This document shows positions 27,001-30,000 of a stretch of DNA of 64,000 nt, piece by piece. How positions within the stretch are numbered: the stretch's first letter is position 1; every line of letters begins with the position of its first letter. The stretch comes from Escherichia coli (GTDB lineage: Bacteria; Pseudomonadota; Gammaproteobacteria; Enterobacterales; Enterobacteriaceae). Location: assembly GCF_044324875.1 (NCBI RefSeq), contig NZ_CP172185.1; one strand, written 5' to 3'. Made by a program: the position numbers.

Positions 27001-30000
27001 CCAATAATGGGGAACAATGTATTGTAAAACGTATTAACGCCGCGCGTGAGCTGCGAAATGATAATAAATGCGGTAGTGAATAATGCCAGGCATATGGCTG
27101 CCAGAGAAATGAGCACATGACCCGCGACGAAATATTCGCTTTGCCCTGAGCTTTCCAGCACAAAGCCACCTAACGCGATACAAATCAAGCCCATAATTAA
27201 CGGGATTAATTTGAAAAGCCACCCGATATATATGTTCACTTTAAACTCCTCAGGTATCCCTGCTAATATTGAAATGTGCATTAATGATAATTTCAGCCTG
27301 TTAATATAATGACGAGATATCATTAAAGACAAATGCATAGCATAACTATAGCGGGATTTACTTTGCAGAGCGCTACTTTTCAGCGTTCAAAAGGCCATGG
27401 TAAATAAATATTTATCCTAAGATTAATTCTTATTCTGTTGTTTTTTACAATTATCTTCCAGGGAGGGATTCTTTTTCATTATTTGGTAAAAGACCGGATG
27501 GTATCGGTGCTTAAAATCATCGAACATATAAGTATTATTGCTTTGTATCATCGTAAAAATGTCTTTCAGACATGTGTCATTTATTTTGTTACTAACAAGT
27601 CAAAAATATCACGGATTATTTATGAAAGTATTTCACAATATATTTAAGCACTTCTCTTCAAACCATCAAGATAAGCATTCAGATAAAGTTAACAGTCATC
27701 AACACCATGGCAAGGTTGATAAAAAACATCGTTCAAAGATAGTTGAAATTGATAAGCTGGATAAACATTCGCAAATAGATAACGATTTTGGCCTGCATAT
27801 CATCTATTTCCTGCAACATGGCTGCTGGAACGTAACTGAACATAGTCCTCAGATAGAAAAACTATGGTTTTACAATAGTGAGCCATCTATAGATATTAAA
27901 GAATATAATAGTTTCGCCGATAATACTACTGACACGTTTATCTTTACAATTATACCAGACAATAACCATGTGATAAAATTATCGTCTCCCATTACCGTTA
28001 CGATTGAGCGTAAGGACGGTTATTATTTTATTAATTTCTCCGGAGATAAATCAGACATAATTTATAAAGTTGATGGGTTTTCTATCATAGAGAGAAATTT
28101 CTTTACTCTTCTTAGTGGTAATTTCAAACCTGACTGGCGTTGGGCTGTCTCTAAAGAGACCTTTACTAAGGAAAAGTTTGATAGCTATGTTGAATCTGTT
28201 TTTTCAAAAATAGACTTTTATAAACAGTGTGGTGTGATTAACCCACAAAATGCCAACACGGCTTATTTTGGCGATACAGATGGAAGAGTAGGCGCTGTAC
28301 TTTATGCATTGCTCGTTTCAGGGCATATAGGCATCAGGGAAAAGGGGTGGAGTTTATTATGTGATTTATTAAAACACGAAGACATGGCTTCATTCGCATA
28401 TGAAAATAAAAAATTGAAAAAACTCTTCACTTTATTAGATACGAGAGACATGATCTTGAATGAGTTGCATCAACATGTTTTTTTAAAAGGCGATGCGATT
28501 ACCCCTTGTATCTTCCTTGGGGATCATACAGGCGATAGATTTAGTACTATTTTTGGTGATAAATATATCCTTACTTTGCTAAATTCTATGCGAAATATGG
28601 AGGGTAATAAAGATAGTCGTATAAATAAAAATGTCGTCGTTCTGGCTGGAAATCATGAAATCAATTTTAATGGTAACTATAGTGCACGACTAGCAAATCA
28701 TAAACTCTCTTCCGGTGATACATATAACTTAATTAAAACGCTCGATGTTTGTAATTATGACTCAGAAACGAAAGTTTTAACCAGTCATCACGGAATAATA
28801 AGAAATGAAGAAAATGAATGTTATTGTCTAGGTGCTTTGCAGGTTCCATTTAATCAGATGAAAGACCCAATTGATCCTGAGGAATTAGCAAATATATTTA
28901 ATAAAAAACATAAGCAACACATGGATGATCGTCTTATCCATCTAATTAGAAGCAATGCTATAGCATCCACACCTGTATATGACAATTATTTTAATAACAC
29001 TACTGCTTTCAGACCAAAACCTGAAGATATCTTCAAATGTGGACAGACGCTCAAAAAAAGTAAACAGAAATATGGCCATTATGGATTAGGGGTAGATAAG
29101 CATCAAAAAATTGATAATTATACCATGGGGCTAAATTCCTGGAAGATAGCACCTAACGAACGTGGTGATAAAAAAGGTGTCCCAGGGCTTAGTTGTTTTC
29201 AATCTCATTAAAACTCCATGAATACGGTGGTATATCTTTTTAATCCTGCCAGTATTTCATAGTTTTTCTTAATCGATTGTAGAGGCATGTACTGATGACG
29301 CCTCTACAATCTTTAGGGACTTTCTCTACTATGAGATAAGAAATTTCATATTATGCTTTAAGGCTGAATGATTTGTGCAAAATATAATTATTTTTCCATC
29401 GAACATGAGGTGTTTGTCATAAGATTAAATGATAACTATGTATTCCTCGCGGTGAATTATATGAGGTAAAAGATGAAAATTGGAACTGTGGCAGGTACTA
29501 ACGACAGTATAACGACTATCGCAACAAATGATATGGTGCAAGAGCATGTTACTAACTTCACTAAAGAACTGTTTGGGTATATTGCAAATGGTATAGGTGA
29601 TGATATATCAAGTATTGCCAGGACAATGCTCGGTGAAGTTGTGGAAAAAATTGATGATTGGCAAATAGAACGTTTCCAACAATCTTTTCAAGATGACAAA
29701 ATTTCATTTACCATAGAAACGAATCATTCAGAAAAATATAGTATGCTATCGGGCATGCGTGCCCATATTCTACGTAGGAATAATAGTTATCAGTTTATTG
29801 TGACAATTAATAGTAAAAATTACGGTTGCCCTCTTGATGATACCGATATTAATTGGTGCAGCATTGTTTATTTACTTAATAATATGACAGTAAATGATAA
29901 TGCTAATGATGTTGCAGTTACTGAGTCGTACAAACCCATCTGGAACTGGAAAATATCGCAATACAATGTATCTGATATTAAATTCGAAACAATGATAAAA

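What the first reader, a model, noticed from the sequence alone, without database searches (positions are those of the whole stretch)
29275..29311. Perfect 12-bp inverted repeat between the yhiL and yhiJ paralogs
gattgtagaggc–N13–gcctctacaatc is an unusually long perfect palindrome for an intergenic region. It lacks a classic U-tract, so it may be a protein-binding site or an mRNA-stabilising stem rather than a simple terminator.
Basis: seen in the sequence. Interest (0 to 1): 0.25.

Follow-up and report, generated by a model that had tools for sequence, protein, structure and literature searches.

The report
Hairpin after the yhiL gene
A real, stable 12-base-pair hairpin sits just after the E. 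coli gene yhiL and before the promoter of its paralog yhiJ; it most likely marks or protects the end of the yhiL transcript, which is ordinary.

Summary
GATTGTAGAGGC-N13-GCCTCTACAATC lies at 29275-29311, is unlikely by chance (local p about 0.02), and folds into a -18 kcal/mol hairpin (z about -6).

It lies in the 261-nt spacer between the co-directional DUF4049 paralogs yhiL and yhiJ. It starts 63 nt after the yhiL stop and ends about 47 nt upstream of the -35 of the putative yhiJ promoter.

It is single-copy. It is present in all 4,170 of 5,426 complete E. coli genomes that carry this AT-rich islet. Both stem polymorphisms give G.U pairs in plus-strand RNA. There are no compensatory changes, and the stem is not significantly more conserved than the spacer. 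The hairpin is lost in E. albertii.

There is no Rfam match, no annotation and no mapped 3' end in the K-12 data I could read. yhiL is a frameshifted pseudogene in K-12.

Best reading: an ordinary 3'-UTR hairpin of yhiL, acting as a weak, non-canonical terminator and/or an exonuclease stop.

One unexpected point: its arms match the core of a widespread GTAG-type palindrome family (TGTAGAGRCG...CGYCTCTACA). That family is linked to RayT-like transposases in Bacteroidota and cyanobacteria. The match is probably coincidence or an old relic. Interest is low.

The parts
29275..29286 (+). Left arm of the perfect inverted repeat (GATTGTAGAGGC); 5' half of the RNA stem
   Evidence: C29286 is polymorphic (C/T), giving a U.G closing pair.
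29287..29299 (+). 13-nt loop (ATGTACTGATGAC in this strain; ATGTTCTGATGAC in K-12)
   Evidence: Three polymorphic loop positions: 29289, 29291, 29297.
29300..29311 (+). Right arm (GCCTCTACAATC); 3' half of the RNA stem
   Evidence: C29304 is polymorphic (C/T), giving a G.U pair.
29266..29272 (+). 5' strand of a weaker predicted lower helix (TTCTTAA), separated from the core stem by a 2-nt bulge
   Evidence: RNA fold of 29265-29325 gives -23.7 kcal/mol, and the helix persists in the 291-nt fold. It contains two G.U pairs and is partly broken in the N96-type lineage.
29313..29319 (+). 3' strand of the lower helix (TTAGGGA); also the weak T-tract region after the stem
   Evidence: Cross-species conservation of the spacer resumes here, at CTTAGG(G)A.
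27622..29211 (+). yhiL-type gene (DUF6860 + DUF4049), whose 3' UTR holds the hairpin. The mechanical ORF starts at 27538.
   Evidence: Frameshifted pseudogene in K-12.
29473..31095 (+). yhiJ (DUF4049), the downstream co-directional paralog
29358..29388 (+). Putative yhiJ promoter: TTAAGG (TTGAGG in K-12), 19-nt spacer, TATAAT. It lies downstream of the hairpin.
   Evidence: A genomic-SELEX RpoD site in the yhiL-yhiJ spacer is listed with TTGACG-19-TATAAT and H-NS (PMC3946193). I matched this to the sequence myself, with a one-letter difference. No TSS has been mapped.

Best explanation
The palindrome acts at the RNA level. When yhiL is transcribed, the 12-bp stem forms in its 3' untranslated region, possibly extended by a weaker 7-bp lower helix. 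The stem defines or protects the 3' end of the yhiL message. It could do this as a weak, non-canonical intrinsic terminator: stem, then UUU, then a poor tail. It could also act as a barrier that stops 3'-to-5' exonucleases after Rho-dependent or run-off termination further downstream. Either way it insulates yhiL transcription from yhiJ, which appears to have its own promoter about 47 nt downstream.

Shown: the structure, its position, its single-copy status and its pattern of variation. Inferred: that transcripts end there and that this matters to the cell.
For: - Position and strand: the hairpin starts 63 nt after the yhiL stop, is co-directional, and lies upstream of the SELEX-defined RpoD site and TATAAT for yhiJ.
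- Stability: -18.0 kcal/mol for the 37 nt and -23.7 for 61 nt, z about -6, with 0 of 200 shuffles as stable. It persists in a 291-nt fold.
- Base rate: 4 of the other 5 perfect inverted repeats of at least 12 bp in this window coincide with mapped RNA 3' ends in K-12: agrA/agrB, rsmJ/dtpB, dinQ/gor and yhiN/yhiM.
- A weak U-tract does not exclude it. Mapped primary 3' ends such as dinQ (hairpin -19 kcal/mol, 3 U), gor (3 U) and tusA (3 U) have the same character.
- Variation: the only two stem polymorphisms seen (C29286T, C29304T) give U.G and G.U in plus-strand RNA, but would be A.C mismatches on the minus strand. 100% of cells remain paired.
- More loop sites vary than stem sites (3 of 13 against 2 of 24).
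- It is present, with at most 3 mismatches, in every one of the 4,170 complete E. coli genomes that carry the spacer.
Against: - No 3' end at this site appears in the K-12 tables I could read: Adams 2021, TERMITe, SMRT-Cappable-seq and TRS. This is weak evidence, because yhiL is an H-NS-bound, frameshifted pseudogene in K-12 and some files were truncated.
- The site fails canonical terminator criteria: 13-nt loop, 3 T in the 8 nt after the stem.
- There are no compensatory double changes.
- Stem conservation is not significantly above the spacer background (2 of 24 against about 19-23% polymorphic sites, p about 0.07-0.14). Part of that sample was selected by exact arms.
- The hairpin is not maintained in E. 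albertii (z -1.2) or in another divergent Escherichia lineage (z +0.8), although the yhiJ-proximal part of the spacer is conserved there.
Confidence: 0.45

Rival explanations
1. The palindrome has no selected function. The hairpin can form, but the repeat is an evolutionary by-product. It could be a decayed or 'corrected' copy of an older imperfect inverted repeat, for example by template-switch (quasi-palindrome) mutation. It could also be a relic of a GTAG-type REP-like mini-element carried in this horizontally acquired, AT-rich islet.
For: - Stem conservation is not significantly above the spacer background, and there are no compensatory changes.
- In E. albertii the same 35-nt slot, between the conserved flanks CTTAATCGAT and CTTAGG, holds a diverged, non-folding sequence. 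That sequence still keeps a CTAC(G/A)AT right end.
- The islet is absent from about 1,130-1,250 E. coli genomes, and yhiL is often a pseudogene.
- The arms equal the core of a widespread palindrome family.
Against: - The perfect 12-bp stem is kept in all 4,170 genomes that carry the spacer, across lineages whose spacers differ by up to about 5%.
- Both stem variants preserve pairing in the transcribed strand.
- Its position is exactly where a 3'-end element is expected.
Confidence: 0.3
2. The palindrome is an RNase III (or other double-strand-specific) processing site in a yhiL-yhiJ read-through transcript. The 12-bp stem plus the 7-bp lower helix gives about two helical turns. Cleavage there would separate the two cistrons or alter their stability.
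For: The predicted composite helix is 12 + 7 bp with a small internal loop. The weak U-tract makes read-through likely.
Against: The lower helix has two G.U pairs and is broken in the N96-type lineage. I obtained no cleavage data. The 13-nt loop and 19 interrupted base pairs make a marginal RNase III substrate (my own knowledge).
Confidence: 0.08
3. The palindrome is a DNA operator. A dimeric or tetrameric regulator would bind the two 12-bp half-sites upstream of the yhiJ promoter, centred near -100, and control yhiJ.
For: The site has perfect dyad symmetry and lies upstream of the putative yhiJ promoter, in an H-NS-bound region.
Against: - It is single-copy in the window and in every E. coli genome, so no regulon-like repeats of the motif exist.
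- Half-site centres are 25 bp apart, about 2.4 helical turns, which puts them on different faces of the helix. This is my inference.
- The variants are of the kind tolerated by RNA pairing.
- The site is not conserved in E. albertii, whereas the promoter-proximal blocks are.
- I could name no matching transcription-factor motif from memory. I ran no systematic motif search.
Confidence: 0.07
4. Pure chance: an accidental palindrome in AT-rich DNA.
For: Genome-wide, about ten perfect 12-bp inverted repeats are expected by chance in 4.6 Mb. I extrapolated this from the 0.14 per 64 kb.
Against: Only 1.8% of shuffles of the local region contain any such repeat. The site sits in the roughly 6% of that region that is the yhiL-yhiJ spacer. 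The observed count in the window is 40-fold above expectation, and most of the others are functional terminators.
Confidence: 0.05

Closest known systems
Rho-independent terminators and protective 3'-UTR hairpins of E. coli mRNAs (for example the dinQ/gor and yhiN/yhiM hairpins in this same window)
   Same: A perfect 12-bp stem of similar energy (-18 against -18.5 to -22 kcal/mol), placed shortly after a stop codon between co-directional genes. Like dinQ and gor, it is followed by only about 3 U.
   Different: The loop is 13 nt rather than 3-8. No 3' end has been mapped here. The site is not called by a consensus terminator scan and is not bidirectional.
E. coli REP/BIME elements (substrates of the RayT/TnpA-REP transposase)
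   Same: A short intergenic palindrome downstream of a gene that contains a GTAG tetranucleotide at the 5' side of the stem on either strand. REPs are known to stabilise upstream mRNA and to lie between co-directional or convergent genes (PMC3733652).
   Different: It is single-copy rather than present in hundreds of copies. It has no significant similarity to the REP consensus or to REPs in this window (p 0.2-0.4). Its GTAG is base-paired inside the stem rather than an unpaired tag.
GTAG-type perfect palindromes TGTAGAGRCG-N8-11-CGYCTCTACA of Bacteroidota, cyanobacteria and others, linked to RayT-like genes (compare the GTAG-tagged repeats of Di Nocera et al. 2013, PMC3733652)
   Same: The E. 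coli element reads TGTAGAGGCA-N11-CGCCTCTACA. That is 19 of 20 core positions identical to the G/C variant, and its TGTAG-to-CTACA length of 31 nt falls in the family range of 29-31. Four independent metagenomic loci carry the identical 12-nt arms.
   Different: Family members are palindromic through the centre, whereas the E. coli centre is a 13-nt unpaired loop. Family members are dispersed or lie inside RayT-like genes, whereas E. coli has one copy and none of the consensus form. No empty site shows an insertion.

Membership tests
Intrinsic (Rho-independent) terminator | Stable G+C-containing stem of about 5-14 bp directly downstream of a gene on the coding strand | tested here: met
   12 perfect bp (6 G-C), -18 kcal/mol, 63 nt after the yhiL stop, same strand.
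Intrinsic (Rho-independent) terminator | Short loop (3-8 nt) | tested here: not met
   The loop is 13 nt on the plus strand. The scan with a 3-8 nt loop limit did not call it.
Intrinsic (Rho-independent) terminator | U-tract (at least 5 U in the 8 nt after the stem) | tested here: not met
   The tail is UUUAGGGA, 3 of 8. Mapped E. coli 3' ends with 2-3 U do exist, so this lowers the claim of being 'canonical' without excluding that it works like a terminator.
Intrinsic (Rho-independent) terminator | RNA 3' ends mapped at the tail | tested here: inconclusive
   None is listed for the yhiL-yhiJ spacer in four K-12 data sets. However, yhiL is a frameshifted pseudogene in an H-NS-bound region in K-12, and some files were truncated when stored.
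E. coli REP/BIME | High copy number, dispersed in intergenic regions | tested here: not met
   One place per genome in 4,170 genomes and none on plasmids. No other copy in the window.
E. coli REP/BIME | Similarity to the REP consensus (GTAG + GCCKGATAAGRCG...) | tested here: not met
   The local alignment score is no better than for shuffled sequence (p 0.2-0.4).
GTAG-type palindrome family TGTAGAGRCG...CGYCTCTACA (RayT-linked) | Conserved 10-nt core arms and an overall length of 29-31 nt | tested here: met
   The left arm matches 9 of 10 and the right arm 10 of 10 against the G/C variant. The length is 31 nt.
GTAG-type palindrome family TGTAGAGRCG...CGYCTCTACA (RayT-linked) | Palindromy continues through the centre (minimal loop) | tested here: not met
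   All 25 viral-contig members are palindromic or near-palindromic through the centre, as are all 5 non-E. coli loci with identical arms. The E. coli centre ATGTACTGATGAC is not.
GTAG-type palindrome family TGTAGAGRCG...CGYCTCTACA (RayT-linked) | Several dispersed copies and/or a cognate RayT-like gene in the same genome | tested here: not met
   The E. coli element is single-copy, and the consensus palindrome is absent from 5,426 E. coli genomes. I did not test whether the E. coli RayT could act on it.
Any Rfam RNA family | Covariance-model match | tested here: not met
   No hit overlaps 29212-29472 even at E up to 10.
Transcription-factor operator | Protein binding; the motif recurs at other regulated promoters | not testable with these tools
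   The only finding is that the motif does not recur. Binding needs an experiment.

The most novel reading that the evidence does not exclude
The palindrome could be an orphan member, or a decayed relic, of a very widespread family of about 30-nt GTAG-headed palindromes (TGTAGAGRCG-centre-CGYCTCTACA). This family is found in Bacteroidota, cyanobacteria and environmental viral contigs, and even in frame inside thousands of RayT-like transposase genes. If so, it would be a trace of REP-like mini-element activity, or of horizontal transfer, in the Escherichia-specific yhiL-yhiJ islet. It may since have been co-opted as the yhiL 3'-end hairpin.
Probability: 0.15. Interest if true: 0.4.

Novelty: new member of a known kind. 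Interest (0 to 1): 0.15.

Why it matters
If the main reading is right, this is one more unannotated 3'-end hairpin. Its use would be in annotating the transcription units of a poorly understood, H-NS-bound, Escherichia-restricted gene pair (yhiL and yhiJ). It would also be an example of a strong stem with a long loop and a weak U-tract, the class that consensus terminator finders miss. It would change no general concept.

The resemblance to the GTAG palindrome family would matter only if shown to be genuine. It would then be a rare solitary REP-like element in E. coli of a type otherwise seen in distant phyla.

Tried and rejected
1. Repeat family within E. coli: rejected. There is no second copy in the window with up to 2 mismatches beyond chance, and one place per genome in 4,170 genomes.
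2. Known RNA family: no Rfam hit.
3. E. coli REP/BIME relic: no significant similarity.
4. Cross-species covariation: not possible.
   - The protein-pattern scan of 100,044 species genomes found no confirmed relative.
   - The flank-pattern scan gave only a chance hit in a Spirochaetia MAG.
   - The DUF4049 family is essentially confined to Escherichia.
   - E. albertii and a divergent Escherichia lineage, obtained through protein look-ups, do not keep the hairpin.
5. Experimental 3' ends: nothing is listed for yhiL or yhiJ in the supplements of Adams 2021, TERMITe, SMRT-Cappable-seq or TRS. Three other papers had no supplement text held, and one id was not held.
6. A putative sRNA 'AC3630', listed as lying between yhiL and yhiJ (PMC12306157, Table S1), looked at first like direct support. 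Its coordinates are NC_000913.3 and map to the yhiJ-yhiY spacer (window about 31153-31291), not to the palindrome.
7. Literature string searches for the arm sequences and for the family core returned only unrelated primer matches.
8. A link between the islet's origin and organisms that carry the GTAG family: distant DUF4049 homologs have no such palindrome nearby.
9. Outer helix 29255-29263 / 29328-29336, seen in the long fold: not kept in K-12 or the N96 type, so I did not count it as part of the element.
10. Minus-strand terminator: the minus-strand hairpin is slightly more stable (-19.8 kcal/mol), but it is followed by GAUUAAGAAAAA, and both natural variants would break it.
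Full report
**Observation.** The window reads ...cttaatc GATTGTAGAGGC atgtactgatgac GCCTCTACAATC tttaggga... 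at 29275-29311. This is a perfect 12-bp inverted repeat with a 13-nt spacer, as reported.

It lies in a 261-nt spacer between two co-directional ORFs. The upstream ORF is 27538/27622-29211 and the downstream ORF is 29473-31095. Both carry Pfam DUF4049, and the upstream one also carries DUF6860. They are 35% identical. RefSeq annotates the same region of K-12 as a frameshifted YhiJ/YhiL-family pseudogene (the yhiL position) followed by yhiJ. In strain MEI003 it annotates two intact DUF4049 genes.

The repeat starts 63 nt after the yhiL stop and ends 161 nt before the yhiJ start. The window is closest to E. coli 042-like strains.

**Is it more than chance?** The 64-kb window has six perfect inverted repeats of at least 12 bp with 3-40 nt spacers. 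Dinucleotide-preserving shuffles give 0.14 on average. Shuffles of the local 36%-GC segment 27000-31500 contain any such repeat in only 1.8% of trials.

As RNA, the 37 nt fold to -18.0 kcal/mol on the plus strand and -19.8 on the minus strand. With the flanks, a second helix (29266-29272 with 29313-19) brings the plus strand to -23.7. The z-scores are about -6, and none of 200 shuffles is as stable. The core stem persists in a 291-nt fold.

**What it is not.**
- It matches no Rfam family, even at E up to 10.
- It is not called by a consensus terminator scan, because the loop is 13 nt and the tail is TTTAGGGA.
- It has no second copy in the window.
- It occurs at exactly one chromosomal place in each of 4,170 complete E. 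coli genomes, and never on plasmids.
- It does not resemble the E. coli REP consensus or the REPs present in this window (p 0.2-0.4).
- No feature is annotated there in RefSeq.

**Distribution and variation.** The spacer and the palindrome are present in the same 4,170 of 5,426 genomes. In most of the remaining genomes both yhiL and yhiJ are missing and yhiM abuts yhiY-yhiI, as seen in the two genomes I inspected. The pair is therefore an accessory, AT-rich islet. A 2014 genomic-SELEX study lists it as H-NS-bound (PMC3946193).

The protein family is almost confined to Escherichia. Only 55 of 1.84 billion representatives match, and most of those are fragments.

Within E. coli I found eight palindrome haplotypes. 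Ten stem pairs never vary. Two vary on one side only: C29286T and C29304T. Both give G.U in plus-strand RNA and would be A.C on the minus strand. There is no compensatory double change. Three of the 13 loop positions vary.

In 92 spacer sequences, about 19-23% of non-palindrome sites are polymorphic, against 2 of 24 stem sites. That is only a marginal deficit (p about 0.07-0.14). Most of those sequences were retrieved by a pattern that fixed the arms, so the sample is biased. The identity classes in the complete genomes are consistent with these haplotypes and reveal no disrupted copies.

**Other species.** I retrieved E. albertii (YhiJ 57% identical) and a divergent Escherichia lineage (86%) through their proteins. 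The yhiJ-proximal two-thirds of the spacer is well conserved in both. The conserved blocks are ATAAGAAATTTCATATTATG, AAATATAA, CATGA, ATAAGAT.AAA and the Shine-Dalgarno region.

Conservation starts immediately after the right arm, at CTTAGG(G)A. The 35-nt slot that holds most of the palindrome is scrambled. The corresponding sequences do not fold better than shuffles (z -1.2 and +0.8). E. albertii keeps the left flank CTTAATCGAT and a right end ...GGCACTACGAT that resembles GCCTCTACAAT. The E. coli perfect repeat therefore probably descends from an older, imperfect one (my reading).

**Context for function.** The SELEX study places an RpoD-holoenzyme site in the yhiL-yhiJ spacer and gives TTGACG-19-TATAAT as the yhiJ promoter. 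K-12 reads TTGAGG, then 19 nt, then TATAAT at the position equivalent to 29358-29388. This strain has TTAAGG. The hairpin therefore sits between the end of yhiL and the likely yhiJ promoter, which is where a 3'-end element for yhiL is expected.

A published table of K-12 transcript 3' termini (TRS, PMC10687069, supplement 5) covers this region. I mapped its sequences onto the window. Four of the other five perfect inverted repeats of at least 12 bp in the window are mapped 3' ends: agrA/agrB, rsmJ/dtpB, dinQ/gor and yhiN/yhiM. Several mapped primary 3' ends have only 2-3 U after the stem, for example dinQ with a -19 kcal/mol hairpin and 3 U.

The same table lists 3' ends after yhiJ (3,630,827/838) but none in the yhiL-yhiJ spacer, which lies at roughly 3,632,75x-79x in U00096.3. 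Three other data sets list nothing for yhiL or yhiJ. In K-12, yhiL is a frameshifted pseudogene in an H-NS-bound region, so this absence is weak evidence.

**A false lead.** A putative sRNA 'AC3630', described as lying between yhiL and yhiJ (PMC12306157, Table S1), maps to the yhiJ-yhiY spacer once its NC_000913.3 coordinates are used. It does not map to the palindrome.

**Best explanation (confidence 0.45).** The palindrome is an RNA hairpin in the yhiL 3' UTR that defines or protects the transcript's 3' end. It would be a weak, non-canonical intrinsic terminator and/or a block to 3' exonucleases after downstream termination. It would insulate yhiL from yhiJ.

The rivals are:
- no selected function, i.e. 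a by-product or relic (0.30);
- an RNase III-type processing site in a read-through transcript (0.08);
- a DNA operator (0.07);
- pure chance (0.05).

The evidence for each, and the experiment that would refute it, are given in the structured fields.

**An unexpected resemblance.** I scanned metagenome contigs for the two arms with any 3-30 nt centre. The scan returned the E. coli locus many times. It also returned five loci from unrelated organisms (GC 37-62%) with the identical 12-nt arms but a fully palindromic centre. An example is GATTGTAGAGGCGCGATGCATCGCGCCTCTACAATC.

One of these lies in frame inside a gene related to REP-associated tyrosine transposases (NCBIfam NF047646, E 4e-16, below the curated cut-off). 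That gene has more than 6,200 homolog clusters. In an alignment of 33 of them, nearly all encode (C/G/R)RDAMH(R/C/G)VST, which is the palindrome TGTAGAGACGCGATGCATCGCGTCTCTACA. Some carry palindrome-preserving double changes (D to G together with V to A), and some carry several copies.

A scan of viral contigs shows the family core is TGTAGAGACG-N8-11-CGTCTCTACA. It is 29-31 nt long, with variable palindromic centres and unconserved flanks. The consensus also hits Nostoc and Calothrix plasmids, but no E. coli genome. GTAG-tagged palindromic repeats in cyanobacteria and other phyla, including copies inside genes, are described by Di Nocera et al. 2013 (PMC3733652).

The E. coli element reads TGTAGAGGCA-N11-CGCCTCTACA (31 nt). 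That is 19 of 20 core positions identical to the G/C variant. Against membership:
- its centre is not palindromic;
- it is single-copy;
- no empty site documents an insertion;
- the number of exact-arm hits is within what a very abundant family would give by chance, once the 9-nt core is shared.

I rate a genuine relationship at about 0.15 and record it as the novel case.

**Verdict.** The element is best explained as an ordinary, lineage-specific 3'-UTR hairpin. Its function is inferred from position, stability and the type of variation, not demonstrated. Novelty: a new, unannotated member of a known kind. Interest: 0.15.

Noticed in passing
L030:2208-2798 (minus strand), palindrome at L030:2454-2489; protein alignment A6: A RayT-like (REP-associated tyrosine transposase-like) gene carries a 36-nt perfect GTAG-type palindrome in frame (peptide DCRGAMHRASTI). 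In an alignment of 33 of its >6,200 homolog clusters, nearly all encode (C/G/R)RDAMH(R/C/G)VST, which is TGTAGAGACGCGATGCATCGCGTCTCTACA. Some carry palindrome-preserving double changes or 2-4 copies.
   Followed up: partly
window 14566-14596: The dinQ/gor bidirectional terminator stem differs from K-12 by a compensatory pair. The window reads AAGGGCAAAGAG/CTCTTTGCCCTT, against K-12 AAGGGCUAAGAG/CUCUUAGCCCUU.
   Followed up: partly
window 27622-31095 (yhiL-yhiJ islet): The islet is 36% GC and is absent from about 1,130-1,250 of 5,426 E. coli genomes, where yhiM abuts yhiY-yhiI. DUF4049 is extremely restricted, with 55 hits among 1.84 billion representative proteins. The conserved FLGDxTGDRF...LAGNHE motifs look like a metallophosphoesterase signature. 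That last point is from my memory and was not tested; there was no PDB sequence hit.
   Followed up: partly
window 29336-29472: The yhiJ-proximal part of the spacer is conserved across E. coli, E. albertii and another Escherichia lineage, far better than the palindrome. The block ATAAGAAATTTCATATTATG overlaps a minus-strand promoter-like site, TGCACA-18-CATAAT (29379..29350), that points towards the palindrome.
   Followed up: no
window about 31153-31291 (yhiJ-yhiY spacer): K-12 3' ends (TRS 3,630,827/838) and a putative sRNA 'AC3630' (PMC12306157, Table S1) map here, at a hairpin followed by UUUUGU. This is the real yhiJ terminator / yhiY leader. The source table labels it loosely as 'yhiL-yhiJ'.
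   Followed up: partly
L015:3136-4037 (strain ZH142; equivalent to window about 29346): An IS1 element is inserted in the yhiL-yhiJ spacer about 35 nt downstream of the palindrome in one pig isolate.
   Followed up: no
window 7393-7421: Another perfect 12-bp inverted repeat (GATGCAGATGCT-N5-AGCATCTGCATC) lies between two minus-strand ORFs. It has no T-tract on either strand, and no 3' end was listed in the part of the TRS table I read.
   Followed up: no
window 29287-29295: The hairpin loop contains a two-codon mini-ORF: ATG TAC TGA here and ATG TTC TGA in K-12. It has no obvious Shine-Dalgarno sequence and is probably meaningless.
   Followed up: no
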